From an uncultured Chloroflexia bacterium (lineage in GTDB: Bacteria > Chloroflexota > Anaerolineae > Anaerolineales > Anaerolineaceae): a DNA stretch of 64,000 bases. Location: the NCBI GenBank assembly GCA_963708715.1, contig CAVPSU010000001.1, positions 736,000 to 799,999 on the forward strand, in the 5' to 3' direction. Made by a program: the position numbers and the translations under genes. Shown one piece after another: positions 33-35,894 of this stretch. Below the pieces are notes generated by a model. The model worked only from the letters and a program-made list of their open reading frames with translations. It searched no databases and was not told the DNA's origin. Every line of letters begins with the position of its first letter. The stretch's first letter is position 1.

Positions 33-104
33 GGGTGCGTAGCTCAATGGTAGAGCAGTGGCCTTTTAAGCCATTGGTTAAGGGTTCGAGCCCCTTCGCA
101 CTCA
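33..104 (+). tRNA. tRNA-Lys (anticodon UUU)
   Basis: Hand-folded cloverleaf: acceptor GGGTGCG/CGCACTC (one G-T pair), D arm GCTC-AATGGTA-GAGC, anticodon stem GTGGC/GCCAT with loop CTTTTAA (anticodon TTT at 65-67), T arm AAGGG-TTCGAGC-CCCTT, discriminator A. No encoded CCA. Confidence 0.85.
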
Positions 105-109
105 CAAGG

Positions 110-130
110 GCACTCTTCGGAGTGCTTTTC
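110..130 (+). terminator. intrinsic terminator after tRNA-Lys
   Basis: GCACTC-TTCG-GAGTGC stem-loop followed by TTTT. Confidence 0.6.
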
Positions 131-25554: not shown

Positions 25555-26454
25555 CTAATCTTCCGGACCTTCCTCTGGTCCGCCAATGGAATAACGTTTC
25601 AATGGGAATAAAGTTTTTACACCTTTACCCATCAACCGTAGAAGAGCGAAAACAGGTTTGAGTATCCAATCCAAAACAGTATTGAAATTTGCCATACCTT
25701 CTGCGATCCATTTCAAGGCAGGCTTCAATTTTCGTAGAGCCGGTGAATGGGAATATAGGAGGCAAAGCAAAATCGTGGCCACCGAGATCCCGAACCGAGC
25801 ATAACTATTGAGCTCAAAATGGAACAGATCGGCAAGCAACAATTCTATCCCGATGTTGAAGACCAACAGGTAGGCAGCAGGTTTGAGGATCGGCTCCCGT
25901 TCAACCGCATAACTGAAAACACCCGCGGCGAAACGCATCAGGAGAATCCCGATAGCCACGCCCAGCATGACCACCCAGAGTTCTTTTGATAGGGTCACTG
26001 CGACGACCACATTATCAAGGCTGAAAACAAGGTCGGTGACCTCGATTGTAAGCACCACATTCCAGAAGTTATTTCCTTCGAGCCTGTGGACATGGGCATC
26101 CTCTTCAGATTCGCCCTCGGCAGGTCTACCCAGATTATCGCATCCCAGTTTGATCAAATATATTGCGCCTACCAATTTGAGCCAGGGATTCTGAATGACG
26201 ATATTCGCCAACAAGAGCATCAATCCCCTACCGAAATAGGCTCCCAACAACCCGACTCGGAGAGCAGCCGTTCGCTGTTGCCCGAGGAACTTATTGAATC
26301 GATAACCAAACCGCCTTAGAGAAGAAGGCCAGGTGACCGGCCGGTCATCCGGCAAGTGAACTACCATAGCCCCAAGAACTGCAGCGTTATCAATTGATAA
26401 AATACCCTCCATAAAAATAAGCTGGAGAATGATCAAGGGGATTGTATAATCCAT
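25555..26454 (-). CDS. TerC-family / DUF475-like integral membrane protein
   Basis: Paired motifs ILSIDNAAVLG and VFSLDNVVVAV in a polytopic 299-aa protein. Confidence 0.65.
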   Translation of the reverse strand: MDYTIPLIILQLIFMEGILSIDNAAVLGAMVVHLPDDRPVTWPSSLRRFGYRFNKFLGQQRTAALRVGLLGAYFGRGLMLLLANIVIQNPWLKLVGAIYLIKLGCDNLGRPAEGESEEDAHVHRLEGNNFWNVVLTIEVTDLVFSLDNVVVAVTLSKELWVVMLGVAIGILLMRFAAGVFSYAVEREPILKPAAYLLVFNIGIELLLADLFHFELNSYARFGISVATILLCLLYSHSPALRKLKPALKWIAEGMANFNTVLDWILKPVFALLRLMGKGVKTLFPLKRYSIGGPEEGPED

Positions 26455-26650
26455 GTAACCTCATAAGAATGGTGCGGGGATGAAAGACAATTGCGCCTTC
26501 AGTATATCTGATAAGAAACACTGCTGAAATGTATCCTTTGTAATGATTGGGCTAATCTAATATCTGTCTTTTTTGTGATGTTAGCTTGACGCTCATACTT
26601 TGATGGGATAGGATTAACCGAATTGGTATATACAGAACGTGATAAATCGG

Positions 26651-27259
26651 ATGGATGATCTAAAACTCGTACAAGATGCTATTCAAGGAGACCTGGACGC
26701 CTTCAACCGGCTGGTCTTGGCGTATCAGGATATAGGGTTCAACCTTGCATATCGGATGTTAGGTGATCCGGTCCTGGCAGAGGATGCTACCCAAGATGCA
26801 TTCTTATCTGCGTATAAACACCTGAATACATTTCGGGGCGGGAGTTTTAAAGCCTGGGTCATGCGGATGGTTACCAATACCTGTTACGATGAACTCCGCC
26901 GACAACAACGTCGTCCAACCACCGCATTGGAACCCGTGAATGATGATGACGATGAAATTGAATTGCCACCGTGGTTGGCAGATGGGAGTCTCTCCCCTGA
27001 AGAGACTATCGAAACGGGCGAGCTGGATCAGGCTATCCAACATTGTCTTGGCGCACTTTCTCCAGAATTTCGTTCTGTGGTAATTTTGGTAGATGTCCAG
27101 GGAATGGATTACGATGAAGTGGCATCTGTAGTAAATACTCCACTAGGTACAATAAAAAGCCGTCTTGCCCGAGCCAGACTTCGAATGAGAGATTGTTTGC
27201 AAGGTTTCGGGGAACTATTGCCCTCGTTTTTGCGTCATGACAGGGAGGGCGTAGTATGA
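26651..27259 (+). CDS. ECF-type RNA polymerase sigma factor
   Basis: Region 2 (DATQDAFLSAYKHLNTFRGGSFKAWVMRMVTNTCYDELRR) and region 4 (GMDYDEVASVVNTPLGTIKSRLARAR). Confidence 0.8.
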   Translation: MDDLKLVQDAIQGDLDAFNRLVLAYQDIGFNLAYRMLGDPVLAEDATQDAFLSAYKHLNTFRGGSFKAWVMRMVTNTCYDELRRQQRRPTTALEPVNDDDDEIELPPWLADGSLSPEETIETGELDQAIQHCLGALSPEFRSVVILVDVQGMDYDEVASVVNTPLGTIKSRLARARLRMRDCLQGFGELLPSFLRHDREGVV

Positions 27260-28353
27260 GCAAAGTGTTTTCCCCACAAGATTGGCAGCAAATATCAGAT
27301 TACATGGATGGTCAGTTATCAAACCAAGACCGACAGGCAATTGAAGAGCTCATCAATTCATCGGAAATCTGGAAAACAAATTATCGCTCCCTGGCTGAGA
27401 CCAGGCAGTTACTTCGTTCTGCACCGAAAAGACGCTCTCCCCATAACTTTACCCTTACTCAATCCCAGGCTGACCAACTGCGCAAACCCCGGTTTGCATT
27501 ATTCTCCTTCCGTTTTGCATCCGTATTAACCACCGGATTAGCAGTAGTAGTATTTCTTTTCAGCTTTCTACTTGAGACATCTACATCCTCATTGCCTGCA
27601 TTACCAGCGGCACTCGCCATGAAAAAGATCTCTCAAACTGAGTCTACAAGTTCCTCACCAGCGGGACCAGTAATCATTTGGGGTCCTCCTGGAACAATTC
27701 CACAGGCTTATAACGGATCAGGAATTGTTGGGGGACGTGGCGGAGGCGGTGGAGGCGGGGCGGAAGGACCCGGAGTAATACCTTATGGCGTTGGAGGTGG
27801 TGGCGGTGGTGGAGTTGATACATTCTCTTTAGAAGCGCCAACCGAAAAAGCAGTGACTGAAGCTACGCCGGAAACCTTCCCTGAGATTCCTCCTGAGATT
27901 GTATCTGAAACAGTCCCGGAATCGACACTGGAGGCTACAATCGAAGCGGCTCCTAATCTGGCTGCTGCACCAGCAACAGTAGCGGAACCTGGTGTCGCTG
28001 CTGAACCTGCACAAGATACGGCGGTCGCACCGGATACTGCACCCGCACCGGTACCTCCGGTCTCACCGGAGATCGCTCCCCAGCCTACCCAACTGCCACA
28101 ACCAACTCCAACCGCTGCATCAGAAAACCAGATAGCCCGACAACCTGCTTCGGATACGACCGGATTGGGCCCAATCCTGGGTGTCCAACCAACAAATCAG
28201 GTTTCGGAAGTTGTTCCTCGTCCTGTGGAAGGGGTACAACAGCCATCAGTCTTAAATCGCAATCCACTTTGGGTCGCATCAGGTATCCTCCTCCTCATCG
28301 GCATCAGCAGCGGTATCGTCGCATTTCTAAAATCCAGGAAAAAACCCAGATGA
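27256..28353 (+). CDS. putative anti-sigma factor (single TM; Gly-run and Pro/Ala/Thr-rich extracytoplasmic region; second C-terminal TM)
   Basis: Overlaps the sigma gene by 4 nt. N-terminal DYMDGQLS anti-sigma-like segment, TM helix at about residue 85, and poly-Gly runs. Confidence 0.55.
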   Translation: MSKVFSPQDWQQISDYMDGQLSNQDRQAIEELINSSEIWKTNYRSLAETRQLLRSAPKRRSPHNFTLTQSQADQLRKPRFALFSFRFASVLTTGLAVVVFLFSFLLETSTSSLPALPAALAMKKISQTESTSSSPAGPVIIWGPPGTIPQAYNGSGIVGGRGGGGGGGAEGPGVIPYGVGGGGGGGVDTFSLEAPTEKAVTEATPETFPEIPPEIVSETVPESTLEATIEAAPNLAAAPATVAEPGVAAEPAQDTAVAPDTAPAPVPPVSPEIAPQPTQLPQPTPTAASENQIARQPASDTTGLGPILGVQPTNQVSEVVPRPVEGVQQPSVLNRNPLWVASGILLLIGISSGIVAFLKSRKKPR

Positions 28354-28850
28354 GTCCATTCGAAGCCAAATATTGTCTTCGTTGCGGAACGCACCTGGAG
28401 ACTCAGCTATATCAGGACGGTCATCTCCACCCGGTTTGCCCCTCCTGCGGTTGGGTGTATTTTCCTGATCCGAAGGTGGCTGCTGCAGCACTCGTAACAA
28501 GTGAACAGAAAATCCTTCTGGTAAAACGCCATTTTGATCCCATGAAAGGTCTCTGGACTTTACCTGCTGGTTTTGTAAATGCAGAAGAAGACCCACAAGC
28601 AGCCGCAGAACGAGAATGCCTGGAAGAGACAGGACTTGTGGTCCATGCGCTGGAATTATTCCATGTGACCACCGGTCGTGACCACCCTCGGGGAGCAGAC
28701 GTAGTCCTTGTCTACCTCGTGGAAGTGGTTGCCGGAACTTTAGGCGCCCATGATGATGCCGATGAAGCAGTTTTCTTTCCAATACACTCGCTGCCGCCGA
28801 TCGCCTTCCGTGCAACAAAAGAGGCAATTGTCAAATTACAATCCAGTTAA
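28350..28850 (+). CDS. NUDIX hydrolase with N-terminal zinc ribbon
   Basis: CLRCG...CPSCG, then the Nudix box GFVNAEEDPQAAAERECLEETGL. ATGA overlap with the upstream stop. Confidence 0.8.
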   Translation: MSPFEAKYCLRCGTHLETQLYQDGHLHPVCPSCGWVYFPDPKVAAAALVTSEQKILLVKRHFDPMKGLWTLPAGFVNAEEDPQAAAERECLEETGLVVHALELFHVTTGRDHPRGADVVLVYLVEVVAGTLGAHDDADEAVFFPIHSLPPIAFRATKEAIVKLQSS

Positions 28851-28936
28851 TTGTAAAAGTTAAATAATTCCAGTGACGGAGTGAACCTATTTCAGCGAAG
28901 AGCATCGCCTATGACAATGCTTTGGGAATTAAATAC

Positions 28937-28971
28937 GGACATCGGCTGCCCTGCAACAGCCGATGTCCTTT
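28937..28971 (+). terminator. intrinsic terminator after the NUDIX gene
   Basis: GGACATCGGCTG-8 nt-CAGCCGATGTCC plus TTT. Confidence 0.65.
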
Positions 28972-29525
28972 CTAAGGAGGAGAACAAGTTTTATGCTCTT
29001 GAAGACTTCTTACCACTACCGCTAGAGGTTATTCTCAATCTATCAAGGGACATTGAACTATCATCATGTTAGCTCTATTTTAATTTTCGATTCTAAAGAC
29101 AGCATTAAATATTTGCGAATATTTCGTTAATATTGGTCTTAATTGGACAATTCAGGAAGTTTGTCGCGATGGTGAATGAATTACTCAGACGATTAATAAT
29201 CCTACATATGACAGTATTTCTTCTTTGGTATGACCTTTATCGTGAAGAGTGTCTGTTCCTCGATTCCAAACCAAATTCAGTCTGTTTGACTCCCAAATTA
29301 GCAGTTTTTCATCCGTAGATGTGATATCTTAAAACCAGTTCGGCACGAATCCTGCAGGATTATGGTTGACAGGTAAGGATCTTATGCCAGCCAAAAAAAC
29401 CAACACCAGACAATCAAAAATACCACTCAAATCTACCAAATCTTCTGTTCGCGCGGATAAGGTCAAAGGAACGACCTTTCGGGAAGTCTTATACGCCAAC
29501 AGGTAAATCCAGATCAAAAAAATCG

Positions 29526-31772
29526 ATGTCCGTCTATGGATATCAGGTTTCCCCAGAACGGAAGATGGACATCATCGGGGTGTTCCTTCTTCTGGCAGGA
29601 TTATTAGCTGCATTGAGTTTATTTGCTGGCAAAGATAACCCAATCACTGCCTGGGTTTCAGGAGTCTTACGCTGGATGACCGGCTGGGGTGTCTGGATCA
29701 TCCCTCTGGCAATCATGATCCCAGGTATCTATCTCATCCTTAGACGGGTTGAATCGCTACCACGTTTACCTTTTGAGCAAATAGCAGGGCTGGTATTACT
29801 GTATCTGAATATCCTGGCGTTTTTCCATTATTTCGCAGGTGGGGCAGTGGATCCCTATCTTCTTGCTGAGGATGGAAAGGGCGGCGGATTGGTTGGCGGG
29901 ATAATTATCCAGTTGTTGGTCGCGGGATTGGGAGATATCGGCGCTTTTCTGGTATTGTGCGCCTGGCTTCTGGTTTCCCTTATTTTCTCTTTTGATATTT
30001 CATTCCAACAAATTGCAAACGGTGTAGGTGGTTTCTTCGGAATCGTCAAAGCATCCACACCCGAAGGCACTAACCTCTTTGATGGTTTACGGACCGGTTT
30101 CAGCGAATGGAAAAATGCGATACGGGAAACCGTGACGATAGACACCGATGATTCTCAAGAGGAGGAAGAAACCATACAGGATGGATTCCAGCCGATAAAG
30201 GGTTCGATCCAAACAATCGATGGAATAGCCTCCCCTGAGATCGCACCAAGTATCGATATTCAACCAGTGGATCCTGTTTGGAAACTGCCGGAACCCGAGA
30301 AAATCCTTGAGCATGGTTCTCCTCAGGTTGAAAATGAAAAAATGGATCTGGAGCGAGCTCGGATGATCGAGGGAACTCTAGCCGACTTTGGAGCTCCAGG
30401 ACATGTTGTGGAGATCCTTCGCGGTCCATCCGTAACCATGTTCGGTGTGGAACCAGACTTTGTAGAAAACCGCAGTGGTAATCATATGCGGGTCAGGGTT
30501 TCAAAAATTGTTTCACTCCAGGATGATCTGGCATTAGCACTGGCGGCAACCAGAATTCGAATTCAGGCTCCAGTGCCGGGACGAAATTATATCGGGATTG
30601 AAGTACCTAACGACCATAAGGCAATGGTTCGTTTGCGGGATGTTGTGGAAAGTCCGTCTTTCAAACGGATCAGGACATCGTTGAAAATTGCCCTGGGTAA
30701 AGATGTATCCGGTGTACCCATTGCTACCGACCTATCGGCCATGCCACACTTACTCATTGCCGGAACGACCGGTTCAGGTAAATCTGTCTGTGTTAATGCA
30801 ATATTGAGCTGCCTTCTGCTCAACAATACTCCGGACGACCTCCGATTGATCCTTGTTGATCCCAAACGAGTGGAGTTCACCAATTACAATGGCATACCTC
30901 ACCTGCTCGCCCCGGTTGTTGTCGAAGCAGATCGGGTTATTGGGGCACTGCAATGGATGCTGCGCGAAATGGATGCCCGTTATCATAAGTTTTCTGCGGC
31001 GGGAGCTCGAAACCTGGAGGATTACAATGTCCGGATGCAGTTGCGGGGCGAAAAGAAGTTGCCAATGCTTGTCATCGTCATTGATGAATTGGCAGATTTA
31101 ATGATGCTCGCCCCTGCTGAAACCCAGGCAGCCATCACCCGTTTGGCGCAAATGGCACGCGCAACCGGTTTACACCTGGTCGTCGCCACCCAGCGTCCGT
31201 CGACCGATGTCATTACCGGATTGATCAAAGCGAATTTCCCTGCCCGAATTGCATTCTCAGTTGCCACTATGATCGATAGCCGTGTGATTCTCGATCAGCC
31301 AGGGGCTGAACAGCTGCTTGGGCATGGTGATATGCTATTTCAGGCGCCTGATGCTGCTGCGCCAGTCCGATTGCAGGGTGTCTATGTGTCCGACAGTGAG
31401 ATCCAAAGGCTTGTGGATTACTGGCGCGGGATCGTTATTGACCAGGCTGAAAGTAATTTTGAAGAGGGGGCGAACGAAGATCTGCCTCCTGCGAACATGT
31501 TGAAACAAGTGGACTTCTGGAGTCCTGGGGGAAGCTTAGGTAGGAGCAATGAAGACCCCTTATTGAGTGAAGTGACCGAACTTGTCCGGAGGGAAGGTCG
31601 CGCTTCGATCTCTATGCTGCAACGTCGTATGCGGATCGGATACACCCGGGCAGCCCGTCTGATCGATCGCATGGAAGAATTAGGAATCATCAGCGCTTCC
31701 CAGGCAAATTCTCAGACTCGCGAAGTATTGGATTATGGGCAGACGATTCCGCCCGAGGATGATGGAGCTTGA
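29526..31772 (+). CDS. ftsK: DNA translocase FtsK/SpoIIIE
   Basis: N-terminal TM domain, Walker A GTTGSGKS, Walker B VIVIDELADL, and a C-terminal gamma (winged-helix) domain SISMLQRRMRIGYTRAARLID. Confidence 0.9.
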   Translation: MSVYGYQVSPERKMDIIGVFLLLAGLLAALSLFAGKDNPITAWVSGVLRWMTGWGVWIIPLAIMIPGIYLILRRVESLPRLPFEQIAGLVLLYLNILAFFHYFAGGAVDPYLLAEDGKGGGLVGGIIIQLLVAGLGDIGAFLVLCAWLLVSLIFSFDISFQQIANGVGGFFGIVKASTPEGTNLFDGLRTGFSEWKNAIRETVTIDTDDSQEEEETIQDGFQPIKGSIQTIDGIASPEIAPSIDIQPVDPVWKLPEPEKILEHGSPQVENEKMDLERARMIEGTLADFGAPGHVVEILRGPSVTMFGVEPDFVENRSGNHMRVRVSKIVSLQDDLALALAATRIRIQAPVPGRNYIGIEVPNDHKAMVRLRDVVESPSFKRIRTSLKIALGKDVSGVPIATDLSAMPHLLIAGTTGSGKSVCVNAILSCLLLNNTPDDLRLILVDPKRVEFTNYNGIPHLLAPVVVEADRVIGALQWMLREMDARYHKFSAAGARNLEDYNVRMQLRGEKKLPMLVIVIDELADLMMLAPAETQAAITRLAQMARATGLHLVVATQRPSTDVITGLIKANFPARIAFSVATMIDSRVILDQPGAEQLLGHGDMLFQAPDAAAPVRLQGVYVSDSEIQRLVDYWRGIVIDQAESNFEEGANEDLPPANMLKQVDFWSPGGSLGRSNEDPLLSEVTELVRREGRASISMLQRRMRIGYTRAARLIDRMEELGIISASQANSQTREVLDYGQTIPPEDDGA

Positions 31773-31851
31773 GATAGAAAAATCAGTAATTAGTAAATGG
31801 AAAATTGGAAAGAGATGGATGAAGAAACAATCTTTCCAATTTGGGAAAAAG

Positions 31852-31880
31852 AAAAAGCTCATTTTTGTGAGCTTTTTTTT
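31852..31880. terminator. bidirectional stem-loop (ftsK on +, tRNA-Ser plus repeat array on -)
   Basis: A5-AGCTCA-TTTTTG-TGAGCT-T7. Confidence 0.6.
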
Positions 31881-32384
31881 GGCGGAGAGTGGCTGCTTGC
31901 GCCCTCGGAGCCTGGTTTCGTAGGCGGAGAGTGGCTGCTCGCGCCCTCGGAGCCTGGTTTCGTAGGCAGAGAGTGGCTGCTTGCGCCCTCGGAGCCTGGT
32001 TTCGTAGGCGGAGAGTGGCTGCTCGCGCCCTCGGAGCCTGGTTTCGTAGGCGGAGAGTGGCTGCTCGCGCCCTCGGAGCCTGGTTTCGTAGGCGGAGAGT
32101 GGCTGCTTGCGCCCTCGGAGCCTGGTTTCGTAGGCGGAGAGTGGCTGCTTGCGCCCTCGGAGCCTGGTTTCGTAGGCGGAGAGTGGCTGCTTGCGCCCTC
32201 GGAGCCTGGTTTCGTAGGCGGAGAGTGGCTGCTTGCGCCCTCGGAGCCTGGTTTCGTAGGCGGAGAGTGGCTGCTTGCGCCCTCGGAGCCTGGTTTCGTA
32301 GGCGGAGAGTGGCTGCTTGCGCCCTCGGAGCCTGGTTTCGTAGGCGGAGAGTGGCTGCTTGCGCCCTCGGAGCCTGGTTTCGTA
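31881..32384. repeat. 12 x 42-bp head-to-tail tandem repeat abutting the tRNA-Ser 3' end
   Basis: Unit is GGCGGAGAGTGGCTGCTTGCGCCCTCGGAGCCTGGTTTCGTA. Copies start at 31881 + 42n. The only variants are T>C at unit position 18 (copies 2, 4, 5) and G>A at position 4 (copy 3). Confidence 0.95.
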
Positions 32385-32386
32385 GG

Positions 32387-32474
32387 CGGAGAGGGTGGGA
32401 TTCGAACCCACGGTGGTCCAGAGGGCCACAACGGTTTTCGAGACCGCCCCGATCAACCACTCCGGCACCTCTCC
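32387..32474 (-). tRNA. tRNA-Ser (anticodon CGA), class II with long variable arm
   Basis: Minus-strand sequence GGAGAGGTGCCGGAGTGGTTGATCGGGGCGGTCTCGAAAACCGTTGTGGCCCTCTGGACCACCGTGGGTTCGAATCCCACCCTCTCCG. Acceptor GGAGAGG/CCTCTCC, anticodon loop CTCGAAA, T arm GTGGG-TTCGAAT-CCCAC, discriminator G. Confidence 0.85.
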
Positions 32475-32551
32475 TGCAGGCGATATTATATCAGAGAAAA
32501 TTTATGGGATGGTATCTGTCAGTGATTACCATCCCATTTATCATTTGCTCA

Positions 32552-33003
32552 CTACTCTTCTAGTTCGAAGATCAAGGGATTGATTCCTGGCCAATGCAGT
32601 TCGTAGGTTTTTAAATTTTCCGGAACACGGAACCCGATCGAAAAATCTTCATCCACCCATCCCGCCATAGTTGTGATTGTTTTGGAGCTGTCATCACCCA
32701 GGATATATACTCCTTCGGGGACCTCCTGAATGGCGGTTTGAAAAGCGGCCAGATCAATTTGCCCGCCATCCGTCCTTTCGAGAACAACCAGCAGGAGCTT
32801 TTCATTCGGGGTTGGCTTGTTCCCATTCGCCTCGGGAACAATTCGCGCTGAGATAAATTTATAGTCCCCATTCGAGGTCGGGAGGGTATTATCACCTAAA
32901 GACCCTTTCCTTTGGTTGTGGTTGCAGTGGTTATCGCCTGTGAGCTGCAGGCTGATAGGGCAAATAAACAGATCAGTAGAATTGAAGTAGTTCGAATATT
33001 CAT
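32552..33003 (-). pseudogene. hypothetical lipoprotein; signal peptide and mature part lie in different frames (shift between 32896 and about 32915)
   Basis: ATG at 33003 (GGGGAG RBS) gives MNIRTTSILLICLFALSACSSQAITTATTTKGKGL, then a stop at 32896. The long ORF 32552-33025 is one frame away and has no signal peptide. Confidence 0.5.
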
Positions 33004-33061
33004 TTTGCTCCCCTTTCATCGGCACAGTATATCAGAAATTTGTCGAAGGTTGAGCGCAGTA

Positions 33062-33146: not shown

Positions 33147-34541
33147 CTAGATCTCATACGTATCGTATAACTCGGGGTAGATTACGTCGGGAAAATTTTT
33201 CTCCTTGAATATCTCAATTAATGGCAGGCTGGACTTTGGCTCGCCGTGAACCATAAATATCTTCTTCGCGTTGTCCTTCACCCGAGCTGCATAACTGACC
33301 AATCCGTCCTGTCCTGCGTGCGCGGACAATCCACCGATTGTGACAACTTCCGCCCTGACCTGGTATTCTTCTCCAAAAATTCGCACCAGTGGCTCGCGAT
33401 CTGCCAGTCGCCTTCCCAGTGTATATGGAGCCTGCCAGGAAACGATCATGATCATGTTACGCTGATCTTCAATATTATTTTTCAGATGATGGAGAATTCT
33501 CCCGGTTTCTGCCATGCCGGATGCAGAAATGATCACCATTGGCTCATGTCGGTCATTTAGCGATTTTGATTCTTCCACTGATCTAACATAATGCAAGGAA
33601 TCAAAATTTAGGGCAGGGTGGCGATGTTCCCGGATGAATCTGTGAGTTTCCTCATCAAAGTTTTCCGGATGCTTAATAAAAATATCAGTTGTATTTACCG
33701 CCAATGGGCTATCTACATAAACAGGGATACGTGGAATTTCCTGGTGGTCCATCATTTCATTAAGGGCGTAAACCAATTCCTGGGTACGACCGACTGCGAA
33801 CGCCGGTATGATGACTTTACCCCGCCGTTCGAATGTCCGAAGTAAAGCTTTGCGCATTTCGATAAAGGCATCCTGCGGGTCTGTGTGTCGTTTATCTCCA
33901 TACGTGGATTCCATCAATAAGTAATCGCAGGTATCCGGCAAGACAGGGTCGCTCACCAGCGGAAGTCCCGGCCTGCCTATATCACCTGAGAACCAGAAAC
34001 GGGTATTTTTTCCATGTTCTTCGATATTCAATATTACCGCCGCAGATCCCAAAATGTGCCCTGCATCTACCAGTTTGGCCGTTACACCGGGGATCGGTTC
34101 AAATTCCTGGTCATAGAGCTTATCCACAAGCATTGGCTTGACCATTTCAGCATCGGCAATCGTGTATAGAGGTTCCACTGGTGGTTCGCCTCGGCGTTTT
34201 CGTTTCTTGTTCACATACTCCACATCACTTTCCTGGATATGCCCGGAATCTCGCACTAGAAGATCAGTCAGATCTGCTGTGGCGGGTGTGCAGTAGATCG
34301 GACCACTGTATGCATTCTTCATCAAATTGGGTAAATTTCCACAGTGATCGATATGGGCATGGGATAGGATCATCGCGTCCAGCTTGCGTGGATTGAAATG
34401 AAACGTGCGATTTCGTTCATAGGTATCATCTCTCCGACCCTGAAAGAGACCACAATCAAGCAGTAACGTGTTTCCGTTTATTTCAAACAGATATTGACTA
34501 CCGGTGACAGTCTGTGAAGCGCCAAAGAAATGTATTTTCAT
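33147..34541 (-). CDS. MBL-fold beta-CASP family RNA-metabolising hydrolase
   Basis: HAHIDHCG motif, 464 aa. Layout of MBL domain, beta-CASP insert and C-terminal RNA-specificity region is typical of bacterial CPSF73/RNase J-like proteins. Confidence 0.8.
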   Translation of the reverse strand: MKIHFFGASQTVTGSQYLFEINGNTLLLDCGLFQGRRDDTYERNRTFHFNPRKLDAMILSHAHIDHCGNLPNLMKNAYSGPIYCTPATADLTDLLVRDSGHIQESDVEYVNKKRKRRGEPPVEPLYTIADAEMVKPMLVDKLYDQEFEPIPGVTAKLVDAGHILGSAAVILNIEEHGKNTRFWFSGDIGRPGLPLVSDPVLPDTCDYLLMESTYGDKRHTDPQDAFIEMRKALLRTFERRGKVIIPAFAVGRTQELVYALNEMMDHQEIPRIPVYVDSPLAVNTTDIFIKHPENFDEETHRFIREHRHPALNFDSLHYVRSVEESKSLNDRHEPMVIISASGMAETGRILHHLKNNIEDQRNMIMIVSWQAPYTLGRRLADREPLVRIFGEEYQVRAEVVTIGGLSAHAGQDGLVSYAARVKDNAKKIFMVHGEPKSSLPLIEIFKEKNFPDVIYPELYDTYEI

Positions 34542-35686
34542 GGAGTTCCTCTTGATGTTCGTGGGTGGATGGCACTGAATATTTGCTCACCATAGGTTCG
34601 ATATCGCCAGGGATATTGCAGCATTCGGAGGGAAAAATCTTCCCAGTGGCGGGGTGGATCCTGTGCCAGATCGTATAACAAATCCCTGGGAAGTATGACA
34701 TCCGACTCGACCTTCATCTTTTCTGCTGCCGTTTTTCTGAATATTTTCAGACGGTCCAGACGTTTCCTAAATGCTGGATCCGAGACATGTTGGCGAGGCG
34801 GGTCTAGTGGGGAGCTTTTTCTACCTTTTTCCACAACCGATATGATTGTCTCTGCAAATTTATTCAATTGATATGGGCTTAATCGAATTTTATGTCGCAG
34901 AGTTCCCATTTGGCAAGTCTTACTTTGCGCGATCATCAATAATTGTTCGTTGCTTATGATCTTGAATGGAGGACGATTGGCTTTATTAGCAGCTTCTTCG
35001 CGCCAGAGTAGTAAATGTAAAAATACGGCTGCATCTTCTGGATTTAGGTCACGCGCTCCGTGAATTCGCCAGATCTCATCCTCGATCTTGTTTTCCGCCG
35101 GGACCGTGGTGCGAGTCATTCGAGCAAAGTCCTCCTGAGCCAGCTCCCATAAACCGGCTGCCCGAAGTTTGTCTTCCAAGACGTCTCGCAATTCCATCAA
35201 GTAATGGGTATCCATCCTGGCGTATGCGAGGTATTCTTCCGGCAATGGTCGCCGTCCCCAGTTTGCTTTTTGCAGACGTTTGTCCAGATTGATTCCAAAT
35301 TCAGTATTTAATAGATTATTCAAGCCGACTTCATGGATCCCAAGGATTCGAGCCGCGACCATGGTGTCAAAGAGACGATTAAATTCAATCCCATAATCCC
35401 GCTTCAAACAAATGACATCATATTCAGATGCGTGGAATATTTTTTCGATCCGGTCGGATGCGAAAATAGCTGATAGCGGAGAAATATCCGGCAACGCCAT
35501 AGGGTCGATCAGGTAATCGTAACCTGGGATTGAAAATTGAATCAGGCAAACTTGTTCCTGGTATGCATGCAGGCTATTCGATTCCGTATCTACGGCGATA
35601 CGTTTTTCCCCCGATAGTATCCTCGTTGTCTCCAGTAATCCTTGAGGAGTGTCAACCCAGATCGGTGGAGGCAATTGTGTGTCCAT
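34538..35686 (-). CDS. rnd: ribonuclease D (DEDDy 3'-5' exonuclease plus HRDC)
   Basis: IAVDTESNSLHAYQEQVCLIQFS exonuclease motif I and YARMDTHYL motif III. Start set at MDTQLPPP (35686). 4-nt overlap with the downstream gene. Confidence 0.8.
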   Translation of the reverse strand: MDTQLPPPIWVDTPQGLLETTRILSGEKRIAVDTESNSLHAYQEQVCLIQFSIPGYDYLIDPMALPDISPLSAIFASDRIEKIFHASEYDVICLKRDYGIEFNRLFDTMVAARILGIHEVGLNNLLNTEFGINLDKRLQKANWGRRPLPEEYLAYARMDTHYLMELRDVLEDKLRAAGLWELAQEDFARMTRTTVPAENKIEDEIWRIHGARDLNPEDAAVFLHLLLWREEAANKANRPPFKIISNEQLLMIAQSKTCQMGTLRHKIRLSPYQLNKFAETIISVVEKGRKSSPLDPPRQHVSDPAFRKRLDRLKIFRKTAAEKMKVESDVILPRDLLYDLAQDPPRHWEDFSLRMLQYPWRYRTYGEQIFSAIHPRTSRGTP

Positions 35687-35894
35687 TGTGTTGATTATAG
35701 TCCAGTTGCTTCCCTTGCTTCTTGGGAAATAGAAGTAACCATACAACTGTTAAACAACAGTCCATCCGTTGTGAAAGGAGGACTGTTGTTTGATTGATAT
35801 ATTGGAATGTTTTTTTTAATTTTGGAGCATTGTGCCACGTAGAATGAATTGCTACTTTGCTCTGACCAATTGAGAAATGGATCGAACCTAATAA

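What the first reader, a model, noticed from the sequence alone, without database searches (positions are those of the whole stretch)
31852..32474. Twelve near-perfect 42-bp tandem units fused head-to-tail to the 3' end of tRNA-Ser(CGA)
Positions 31881-32384 are 12 exact head-to-tail copies of GGCGGAGAGTGGCTGCTTGCGCCCTCGGAGCCTGGTTTCGTA. Only two positions vary: unit position 18 T>C in copies 2, 4 and 5, and position 4 G>A in copy 3. A 13th unit would begin at 32385. There the first 9 nt (GGCGGAGAG) run straight into the minus-strand tRNA-Ser gene (32387-32474); they are the complement of its acceptor 3' strand, its discriminator and 2 trailer nt. Read on the tRNA strand, every unit therefore ends ...CCACTCTCCGCC, a near copy of the tRNA end ...CCCACCCTCTCCGCC. 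Every unit also begins TACGAAACC, which resembles the T-loop TTCGAATCC. The far side of the array is closed by a stem-loop with a T-run (31852-31880), so the tRNA plus about 0.5 kb of repeats looks like one transcription unit. The unit is 14 codons long, so all six frames stay open and produce the 190-262 aa repeat ORFs in the track. Several of them run into the tRNA gene, so I do not regard any of them as genes. I know of no described element made of tandem units derived from a tRNA 3' end. Possible explanations: a minisatellite seeded by duplication of the tRNA 3' end, scars of repeated site-specific recombination at a tRNA attB, or a transcribed array presenting 12 acceptor-end mimics to 3'-processing enzymes. 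RNase Z, RNase D and a beta-CASP RNase are all encoded in this window, which may be coincidence.
Basis: partly seen in the sequence, partly recalled or inferred. Interest (0 to 1): 0.8.

Follow-up and report, generated by a model that had tools for sequence, protein, structure and literature searches.

The report
Conserved repeat array trailing tRNA-Ser
Twelve head-to-tail 42-base repeats sit directly behind a serine tRNA gene in an uncultured Anaerolineaceae bacterium; two related species carry shorter versions whose 32-base core has barely changed, so the array is probably a functional, non-coding tail of the tRNA transcript, built like the known repeats behind the E. coli tyrosine tRNA genes.

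Summary
Positions 31881-32393 hold 12.2 copies of a 42-nt unit, and its first 9 nt (CTCTCCGCC on the tRNA strand) are the 3' end of tRNA-Ser(CGA). The only terminator lies beyond the array. The array is neither an artefact nor a one-off. Two related Anaerolineaceae MAGs carry orthologous arrays between the same tRNA and the same terminator: 3 x 41 nt and 4.2 x 43 nt. Periods of 41, 42 and 43 nt rule out coding. Each unit is a variable A-rich linker of 9-11 nt plus a 32-nt core. The core is 94-97% identical between species, although four-fold codon sites are at or near saturation (30-50% identity) and flanking spacers are about 60% identical. That indicates purifying selection, so this is not a neutral minisatellite. 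Beyond the last 9-12 nt the unit is not significantly tRNA-like, and the "T-loop" resemblance is not conserved. No RNA structure is supported by covariation. No mobile-element genes lie nearby. My best reading is a co-transcribed trailer RNA carrying repeated binding modules; that function is inferred. I rate it a new variant of a known kind, of moderate interest.

The parts
32387..32474 (-). tRNA-Ser(CGA) gene. CCA is not encoded; the discriminator G (32387) is followed by CC and then U.
   Evidence: ARAGORN and Rfam RF00005 at 56.1 bits. The sequence is 98-99% identical in L001 and L002.
31881..32393 (-). Tandem array of 12.2 copies of a 42-nt unit. On the tRNA strand each unit is a 10-nt A-rich linker (TACGAAACCA) followed by a 32-nt core (GGCTCCGAGGGCGCAAGCAGCCACTCTCCGCC). 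The partial copy at 32385-32393 is the tRNA's own 3' end. The seven tRNA-proximal copies are identical; all variants lie in the five distal copies.
   Evidence: TRF, pattern search and direct reading. Orthologous arrays occur in L001 (3 x 41) and L002 (4.2 x 43).
32343..32374 (-). The 32-nt conserved core, shown for the tRNA-proximal unit. It is the part of the unit under purifying selection.
   Evidence: The core is 31/32, 31/32 and 30/32 identical between the three species, while four-fold sites are 30-50% identical.
32375..32384 (-). The variable A-rich linker, shown for the tRNA-proximal unit. It is 9-11 nt long in the three species.
   Evidence: 64-80% identity, with indels.
31852..31877 (.). 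Bidirectional intrinsic-terminator-like hairpin (AAAAAGCTCAC..GAGCTTTTT). It closes the tRNA-plus-array unit on the minus strand and ftsK on the plus strand.
   Evidence: The orthologous GCTCAC/GTGAGC hairpin lies directly distal to the array in L001 and L002.
32485..32493 (-). Extended -10 promoter element TGATATAAT, whose last base lies 10 nt upstream of the tRNA 5' end.
   Evidence: Read directly. The block TTTTCTCTGATATAAT is conserved in L001, L002 and L187, and TGATATAAT in L195, while the surrounding spacer has diverged. The consensus scan, which needs a -35 element, did not call it.

Best explanation
This is a lineage-specific, non-coding tandem array built onto the 3' end of tRNA-Ser(CGA). 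Each unit is a free-to-vary A-rich linker (9-11 nt) plus a 32-nt core whose last 9 nt repeat the tRNA's acceptor 3' strand, discriminator and CC. The array arose in the common ancestor of a small Anaerolineaceae clade, by a duplication bounded on one side by the tRNA's terminal CTCTCCGCC. Since then it has grown and shrunk by slippage or unequal recombination: 12, 3 and 4 copies today, homogenised within each species. The core is held constant by purifying selection. The array lies between the tRNA and the only terminator, and tRNA genes here do not encode CCA. The most likely mechanism is therefore that the array is transcribed with the tRNA from the extended -10 promoter and released as a 0.15-0.5 kb trailer when RNase Z cuts after the discriminator. 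The terminator hairpin would protect the trailer's 3' end. The trailer would then act as a multivalent RNA presenting 3-12 identical sequence-specific sites, as a decoy or sponge for a protein or RNA that recognises the core. Shown: the anatomy, orthology, non-coding nature, concerted evolution and core conservation. Inferred: transcription through the array, RNase Z release, action at the RNA level and the sponge function.
For: Anatomy. Orthologous arrays between the same tRNA and the same terminator hairpin occur in two independent MAGs, with unit lengths of 41 and 43 nt. Core identity is 94-97%, against 98-99% for the tRNA, 64-80% for the linker and 59-65% for flanking spacer and terminator regions. 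Four-fold-site identity is 0.47-0.50 (window vs L001) and 0.30-0.31 (window vs L002). The binomial probability of such conservation at the neutral rate is 1e-4 to 1e-13, even for the 18 nt that neither the tRNA nor the terminator anchors. All five variable core positions fall in positions predicted to be unpaired. The other tRNA in the window has its terminator 4 nt after the gene and no CCA, so the array is an insertion into a normally minimal trailer. Among 31 tRNAs in 1.57 Mb of fetched DNA, only these three tRNA-Ser genes and E. coli tyrV have a tandem repeat touching the 3' end. Precedents for functional tRNA trailers are rttR in the tyrT repeats (PMC3318445) and a tRNA 3' external transcribed spacer that sponges the sRNAs RyhB and RybB (PMC9514646, citing Lalaouna 2015).
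Against: There are no expression data. Predicted folds are no better than shuffles (z -1 to -2; core hairpin matched or beaten by 131 of 1000 shuffles). None of 23 consensus pairs shows a compensatory change, so nothing shows that RNA rather than DNA is the selected molecule, or which strand matters. No Rfam family matches. Only three lineages carry the array, and a close relative of L002 (L187; beta-CASP 97% identical) has no array after its tRNA. The array is therefore dispensable or was displaced there. No binding partner is identified.
Confidence: 0.45

Rival explanations
1. Neutral bacterial minisatellite (VNTR). A chance duplication seeded on the tRNA end expands and contracts by slippage and has no function.
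For: Copy number differs between species (12, 3, 4), copies are homogenised within each array, and variants cluster at one end. The distribution is tiny, and the array is absent in L187 and L195. No significant structure is predicted.
Against: A neutral array diverges at the neutral rate. Here the 32-nt core differs by 1-2 nt between species whose four-fold sites are 30-50% identical and whose adjacent spacers are about 60% identical, while the linker inside the same unit did diverge.
Confidence: 0.2
2. DNA-level array of protein-binding sites, like an operator, centromere or nucleoid-protein array. Each 32-bp core would be an imperfectly dyad-symmetric site, repeated every 41-43 bp (about four helical turns) so that the sites lie on one face of the helix.
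For: The sequence itself is conserved, with no compensatory changes in any of the 23 predicted pairs. That pattern fits sequence-specific recognition better than selection on structure alone. The period stays at 41-43 bp although the linker sequence changes. The core can pair with itself: GGC..GAG.GGC / GCC.CUC..GCC. From memory, the F-plasmid centromere sopC is 12 x 43 bp.
Against: The dyad symmetry is not better than shuffles. No candidate DNA-binding or partition gene co-occurs with the array in the three loci. The position, exactly between a tRNA and its terminator and starting inside the tRNA, is more naturally a transcript feature.
Confidence: 0.15
3. Scars of repeated site-specific integration and excision at a tRNA-Ser attB site, or repeated insertion of a tiny element that duplicates a 9-bp target.
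For: tRNA 3' ends are classic integration sites (general knowledge). Every unit is flanked by the 9-nt CTCTCCGCC, like a target duplication. The tRNA 3' flank is a rearrangement breakpoint between lineages.
Against: No integrase, transposase or reverse transcriptase lies within about 10 kb. A 33-nt insert with no terminal inverted repeats is not a known element type. No other copy of the core occurs in 1.57 Mb of related DNA. The core occurs only as three single, chance-like hits in viral contigs. Species-specific linkers homogenised within each array indicate evolution in place, and conservation across saturated divergence is not explained.
Confidence: 0.04
4. Assembly artefact or protein-coding repeat.
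For: Perfect tandem repeats can be mis-assembled. All frames are open in the window.
Against: Three independent assemblies carry the array with different unit sequences and lengths. Periods of 41 and 43 nt shift the reading frame in every unit, so no repeated peptide can be conserved. The exact copy number of 12 remains unverified.
Confidence: 0.03

Closest known systems
E. coli tyrT-tyrV 3' repeats (rttR / rtT RNA, tpr)
   Same: The layout is the same. A tandem array begins inside the tRNA gene, every unit ends with a copy of the tRNA's 3' terminus, the array lies in the tRNA trailer, and an sRNA is annotated in it. I checked this directly on NC_000913.3: TRF gives 178 bp x 3.1 at locus positions 505-1063, overlapping tyrV at 1045-1129, and each unit ends AATCCTTCCCCCACCACCA. 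[quoted passage not shown]
   Different: There is no sequence homology (one search matches only the tRNA-Ser body). The unit here is 42 nt rather than 178 bp, the shared tRNA tail is 9-12 nt rather than 19 nt including CCA, and there are 12 copies rather than 3. No small ORF such as tpr is present. The phylum differs (Chloroflexota vs Proteobacteria). Here the evidence for function is cross-species conservation rather than a detected RNA.
3' external transcribed spacer of glyW-cysT-leuZ (3'ETS-leuZ), an sRNA sponge
   Same: It is a tRNA 3' trailer that is released during processing and has a function of its own (PMC9514646, citing Lalaouna et al. 2015).
   Different: It is a single short spacer, not repeated, and it acts by base-pairing to known Hfq-dependent sRNAs. 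No partner sRNA, Hfq dependence or expression is known here.
Multi-repeat sponge RNAs (CsrB/RsmZ, CrcZ type; from memory)
   Same: One transcript carries many copies of a short conserved motif separated by variable spacers, and copy number varies between species.
   Different: Those are stand-alone sRNA genes with 5-8-nt motifs (GGA, CA-rich). Here the motif is 32 nt, the repeats are exact and tandem, and the array is fused to a tRNA. The tRNA strand has no GGA motif.
Bacterial VNTR / minisatellite loci (e.g. MLVA markers; PMC1781188)
   Same: It is an intergenic, head-to-tail array with a 10-100-bp unit, and copy number varies between lineages.
   Different: VNTRs are treated as fast-evolving markers. 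Here the unit core is conserved across species with saturated synonymous divergence, and the array is anchored in a tRNA gene.
CRISPR arrays and REP/BIME elements
   Same: They also have short, partly self-complementary repeats of about 30-40 nt in non-coding DNA.
   Different: The array has no unique spacers: the 9-11-nt linkers are identical within an array. It has no cas genes, and no dispersed copies occur in 64 kb or in the relatives.

Membership tests
tRNA-3'-end-anchored trailer repeats (tyrT/rttR type) | The tandem array starts inside the tRNA gene, and each unit ends with a copy of the tRNA's 3' terminus. | tested here: met
   TRF array 31881-32393 overlaps the tRNA at 32385/7-32474, and every unit ends CTCTCCGCC. 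The same test on E. coli tyrV gives the same picture.
tRNA-3'-end-anchored trailer repeats (tyrT/rttR type) | The array is transcribed with the tRNA and processed into a stable RNA. | not testable with these tools
   The only evidence is positional: the extended -10 element upstream and the first terminator distal to the array in three species.
tRNA-3'-end-anchored trailer repeats (tyrT/rttR type) | Sequence homology to the E. coli repeats or the Rfam RtT family. | tested here: not met
   Rfam scans find no RtT match. blastn against E. coli matches only the tRNA-Ser body. The two are analogous, not homologous.
Neutral VNTR / minisatellite | Head-to-tail repeats whose copy number varies between lineages. 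| tested here: met
   12.2, 3.0 and 4.2 copies.
Neutral VNTR / minisatellite | The unit sequence evolves at about the neutral rate. | tested here: not met
   Core identity is 94-97%, against 30-50% at four-fold sites.
Structured RNA family | A secondary structure supported by covariation or by folding energy beyond shuffles. | tested here: inconclusive
   None of 23 pairs shows a compensatory change, and all paired columns are invariant. z-scores are -1 to -2. Only five distinct sequences are available.
CRISPR array | Repeats separated by unique spacers of about 26-72 nt. | tested here: not met
   The linkers are 9-11 nt and identical within an array.
REP/BIME or MITE-type dispersed element | Many dispersed copies in the genome. 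| tested here: not met
   No copy occurs outside the arrays in the window, L001 or L002, or in 1.57 Mb of loci. The whole genome could not be searched.
Integrative-element att scar at a tRNA gene | An integrase or element genes adjacent, or the att core present on mobile elements. | tested here: not met
   The neighbours are ftsK, a lipoprotein-like ORF, a beta-CASP nuclease, RNase D, Lpd, NUDIX and sigma/anti-sigma genes. The viral scan gave three single, chance-like hits.
Protein-coding tandem repeat | The period is a multiple of 3, and the peptide is conserved in orthologues. | tested here: not met
   The periods are 41 and 43 nt in L001 and L002.
tRNA 3'-half duplicate (pseudo-tRNA fragment) | The unit body aligns significantly with the T-arm and acceptor region beyond the terminal 9 nt. 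| tested here: inconclusive
   The collinear T-arm window is the best-scoring of all tRNA windows. However, 276-575 of 5000 shuffles score as well (p about 0.06-0.12), and local alignments are not significant.

The most novel reading that the evidence does not exclude
The array encodes a previously undescribed kind of tRNA-trailer RNA. It would be a selectively maintained, modular transcript in which 3-12 copies of a 32-nt module present the tRNA-Ser acceptor 3' strand, discriminator and CC in a fixed context. It would act as a multivalent decoy or titrator for a factor that reads the tRNA-Ser 3' end, such as a processing or repair enzyme, a toxin or an RNA. The dose would be set by repeat number.
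Probability: 0.25. Interest if true: 0.7.

Novelty: new variant of a known kind. Interest (0 to 1): 0.45.

Why it matters
If the conserved core is a working RNA module, this is a second, independent case (after E. coli tyrT/rttR) of bacteria building a repeat-based RNA out of a tRNA's own 3' end. It comes from a poorly studied phylum, and here the evidence for selection comes from comparative sequence alone. It would show that tRNA trailers can evolve into multivalent regulators by simple slippage. It would also give a concrete 32-nt bait for finding the binding partner. If it is not functional, it remains a clean example of concerted evolution in a bacterial minisatellite anchored in an essential-type gene. 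It is also a warning that 42-nt repeats create six spurious ORFs.

Tried and rejected
(1) Metagenome-wide scan with the 19-specified-base core GGCTCCGAGGGCGCNNGCNGCC. The pattern was too unspecific and the scan was wasted.

(2) Viral-contig scan. It gave three single hits and no array.

(3) Profile search (nhmmer) and fuzzy search of all 199 held sequences. They found no further copies.

(4) Rfam at gathering and E-value thresholds. Only the tRNA matched, plus an antisense-tRNA hit to a plastid motif.

(5) RNA folding of single and double units on both strands, and RNAalifold. No significant or covarying structure emerged.

(6) Similarity of the unit body to the tRNA, sense and antisense. At best it is marginal, so the "T-loop" resemblance is rejected.

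(7) Wider sampling through neighbouring proteins. The lipoprotein-like ORF has only 6 relatives in 5.8 billion proteins. One contig had no DNA held, two contigs were too short, and the window's own beta-CASP protein was not on record for look-up. No population-level copy-number data could be obtained.

(8) The coding hypothesis is rejected on the period.

(9) The integrase-scar hypothesis is rejected on gene context.

(10) A functional link to the neighbouring RNase D and beta-CASP genes is rejected. That gene pair is syntenic in relatives without the array, and even without the tRNA.

Full report
**Observation**

Tandem Repeats Finder reports one strong array at 31881-32393: period 42, 12.2 copies, 98% matches. 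A pattern search finds 12 head-to-tail copies with 0 or 1 mismatch, none elsewhere in the window, and none in shuffles.

ARAGORN and Rfam place tRNA-Ser(CGA) at 32385/32387-32474 on the minus strand. On the tRNA strand the gene ends ...GGGTTCGAATCCCACCCTCTCCG-CC. It is followed directly by (TACGAAACCA GGCTCCGAGGGCGCAAGCAGCCACTCTCCGCC) x 12, then A8 and the hairpin GCTCAC..GAGC with a T-run. That hairpin reads as a terminator on both strands and also closes ftsK (29526-31772, plus strand).

Upstream of the tRNA lies an extended -10 element, TGATATAAT (32493-32485). It is conserved in all relatives.

**Organism and relatives**

A FtsK-based scan of GTDB species genomes places the window in the Anaerolineaceae (Chloroflexota), near Leptolinea.

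- Only the two closest genomes keep tRNA-Ser(CGA) next to ftsK, and both carry an array in the same place.
- L001 (FtsK 95% identical) has 3 x 41 nt: TAAACACCA + GGCTCCGAGGGCGCAAGCAGCCGCTCTCCGCC.
- L002 (FtsK 89% identical) has 4.2 x 43 nt: TGATAAAACAA + GGCTCCGAGGGCGCAGGC[A/G]GCCACTCTCCGCC.
- In all three species the first terminator-like hairpin on the tRNA strand, the orthologous GCTCAC/GTGAGC stem, lies immediately distal to the array.
- Two array-less relatives were recovered through neighbouring proteins.
- L187 has a beta-CASP protein 97% identical to that of L002. Its tRNA is followed by unrelated sequence.
- L195 is a Leptolinea sp. and the outgroup. Its tRNA is followed directly by a T-run.
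- The beta-CASP tree is (window, L001), (L002, L187), with L195 outside. The array therefore dates to the ancestor of this small clade and was lost or displaced in L187.

**What the array is not**

- It is not coding. Periods of 41 and 43 nt shift the frame in every unit, so the six open frames in the window are a by-product of 42 = 14 x 3.
- It is not a CRISPR array, because it has no unique spacers.
- It is not a dispersed REP- or MITE-like element. No other copy occurs in the window, in L001 or L002, or in 1.57 Mb of fetched loci.
- It is not visibly a recombination scar. The neighbours are housekeeping genes (TerC, sigma/anti-sigma, NUDIX, FtsK, a lipoprotein-like ORF, beta-CASP nuclease, RNase D, Lpd, esterase, EamA, PolA). 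The core is not found as an array in viral contigs.
- It is not an assembly artefact in kind, since three independent assemblies carry it. The exact count of 12 is unverified.

**Relation to the tRNA**

Only the last 9 nt of each unit (CTCTCCGCC) are demonstrably tRNA-derived, or 12 nt if a 2-nt gap is allowed (CCAC--TCTCCGCC).

The remaining 33 nt show no significant similarity to the tRNA in local alignment, sense or antisense. In an anchored alignment the collinear T-arm segment is the best-scoring tRNA window, but 6-12% of shuffles score as well. A diverged T-arm origin is therefore possible but unproven.

**The key new result: selection**

Between the window and L001, four-fold degenerate sites in ftsK and the beta-CASP gene are 47-50% identical. 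Between the window and L002 they are 30-31% identical, which is saturated. Identities by segment are as follows.

| Segment | Identity between species |
|---|---|
| tRNA | 98-99% |
| 32-nt core | 94-97% (30-31 of 32) |
| Promoter block | 88-92% |
| Linker | 64-80%, with indels |
| Spacer upstream of the promoter | 61-62% (window vs L001/L002); 80% (L001 vs L002) |
| Region beyond the array (terminator) | 59-65% |

Consider only the 18 core positions that neither the tRNA end nor the terminator stem could anchor. Even for those, the probability of so few differences at the neutral rate is 7e-5 for L001 and 6e-7 for L002.

A tandem array that evolves in concert still fixes neutral changes at the mutation rate. 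The core is therefore under purifying selection, while the linker is constrained only in length (9-11 nt) and A-richness. This rules out a purely neutral minisatellite and is the main reason the feature deserves attention.

**Structure**

One unit can fold as GGC/GCC + GAG/CUC + GGC/GCC around a 7-nt loop, GCAAGCA. Adjacent units can form the same pairs between units, with the linker as the loop.

All five variable core positions (25, 26, 29, 33, 39) are unpaired in these models. However, none of the 23 pairs shows a compensatory change, and folding energies are within 1-2 sd of shuffles.

The terminator of the upstream gene, by contrast, has turned over completely in sequence while keeping its stem. 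The pattern at the core therefore looks like sequence-specific recognition rather than selection on structure alone. It does not show whether RNA or DNA is recognised.

**Mechanism**

The array lies inside the apparent tRNA transcription unit in all three species. tRNA genes in this genome do not encode CCA. The window's other tRNA, tRNA-Lys, has its terminator 4 nt after the gene.

I therefore favour co-transcription, RNase Z cleavage after the discriminator, and release of a terminator-capped trailer carrying 3-12 identical modules. That trailer would act as a multivalent decoy or sponge. Everything after "inside the transcription unit" is inference.

The main alternative that also explains the conservation is an array of DNA sites for a protein. 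The 41-43-bp period is about four helical turns, and the core has weak dyad symmetry. No partner gene is evident, and the symmetry is not significant.

**Comparison with known systems**

The closest precedent is the E. coli tyrT-tyrV locus. I checked NC_000913.3 directly. TRF finds 3.1 x 178 bp starting inside tyrV, every unit ends with the 19-nt tRNA-Tyr 3' end AATCCTTCCCCCACCACCA, and the sRNA rttR and the small ORF tpr are annotated in the first unit. PMC3318445 cites Bosl and Kersten (1991) for rttR being encoded by one repeat unit.

The present array has the same layout but is not homologous. Its unit is four times shorter, it has four times more copies, and it lies in another phylum.

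Functional tRNA trailers are also known from an E. coli tRNA 3' external transcribed spacer that sponges the sRNAs RyhB and RybB (PMC9514646, citing Lalaouna 2015). From memory, that is the glyW-cysT-leuZ 3'ETS.

Among 31 tRNA genes in all the DNA fetched here, only tyrV and the three tRNA-Ser(CGA) genes have a tandem repeat touching their 3' end. The arrangement is rare but not unprecedented.

**Verdict**

- The array is real, non-coding and orthologously conserved. Selection maintains its core. It is built on the tRNA's 3' end and evolves in copy number by slippage.
- It is a new variant of a known kind (tyrT/rttR-type tRNA-anchored trailer repeats). Its function is unknown but probably real.
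- Interest is moderate at 0.45. The conservation is a genuine surprise for a minisatellite. Against that, the distribution is three uncultured species, no structure or partner is identified, and the concept has a 40-year-old precedent.

Noticed in passing
window 25555-32474 compared with L195 6432-9923: The tRNA-Ser 3' flank is a rearrangement breakpoint. In the Leptolinea outgroup (L195) the tRNA is followed by DUF5679, then TerC, sigma, anti-sigma and NUDIX. In the window the same TerC-sigma-anti-sigma-NUDIX block lies in inverted order, with ftsK now abutting the array. L002 has two extra genes (a membrane protein and a methyltransferase) between ftsK and the array. In L187 the tRNA is followed by unrelated sequence. 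The array may have arisen at this junction.
   Followed up: partly
window 32552-33025 (-): The 157-aa ORF directly upstream of the tRNA has no Pfam or NCBIfam match and only 6 relatives among 5.8 billion proteins, all in this small clade. The L002 orthologue has a lipoprotein-like N-terminus (hydrophobic stretch followed by Cys). It is absent from the outgroup L195, where the tRNA follows the beta-CASP gene directly.
   Followed up: partly
L001 8431-8520: The L001 tRNA-Ser has CCCACCTCTCC where the others have CCCACCCTCTCC (one C fewer). ARAGORN therefore shifts the 5' end by one base. This is either a homopolymer error in a long-read MAG or a real acceptor-stem change.
   Followed up: no
L036 3735-3875, L037 1-176, L041 3801-3857: Candidatus Mesolinea-type loci carry 4-11 tandem copies of a 16-nt self-complementary unit, TACCCTTCGGGTACTC, about 2 kb upstream of ftsK. 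This is an unrelated short palindromic tandem array.
   Followed up: no
L022, L024, L027, L042, L043, L059, L063 (about 9.5-9.8 kb, or 2.5-4.6 kb in the shorter loci): Many Anaerolineaceae loci have 33/66-nt tandem repeats rich in GAAG/GTCG about 1.5 kb downstream of ftsK. The period is a multiple of 3, so this is probably an acidic repeat protein.
   Followed up: no
window 33147-35746 (-): The RNase D / beta-CASP MBL nuclease gene pair is conserved across Anaerolineaceae, with or without the tRNA-Ser downstream. The best NCBIfam hit of the beta-CASP protein is the 'type VII CRISPR-associated Cas14' model, far below its cut-off (391 vs 800 bits). This is family-level similarity only.
   Followed up: partly
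window 32387-32439 (+): There is an Rfam sub-threshold hit to 'Plastid-psbI-rps4 3'UTR' (44.5 bits, gathering score 68) on the strand antisense to tRNA-Ser. That plastid motif most likely overlaps an antisense trnS gene, so the hit is not a real feature here.
   Followed up: no
window 33-130 (+): tRNA-Lys(UUU) is followed 4 nt later by a GC-rich hairpin and T-run (GGCACTC-TTCG-GAGTGC-TTTT) and does not encode CCA. This appears to be the normal tRNA gene layout in this genome and contrasts with the 0.5-kb trailer of tRNA-Ser.
   Followed up: partly
window 28015-28070: A weak 18-nt x 3.1 tandem repeat (69% matches) lies inside the 365-aa ORF downstream of the ECF sigma factor. The period is a multiple of 3, so it is probably a coding repeat.
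   Followed up: no
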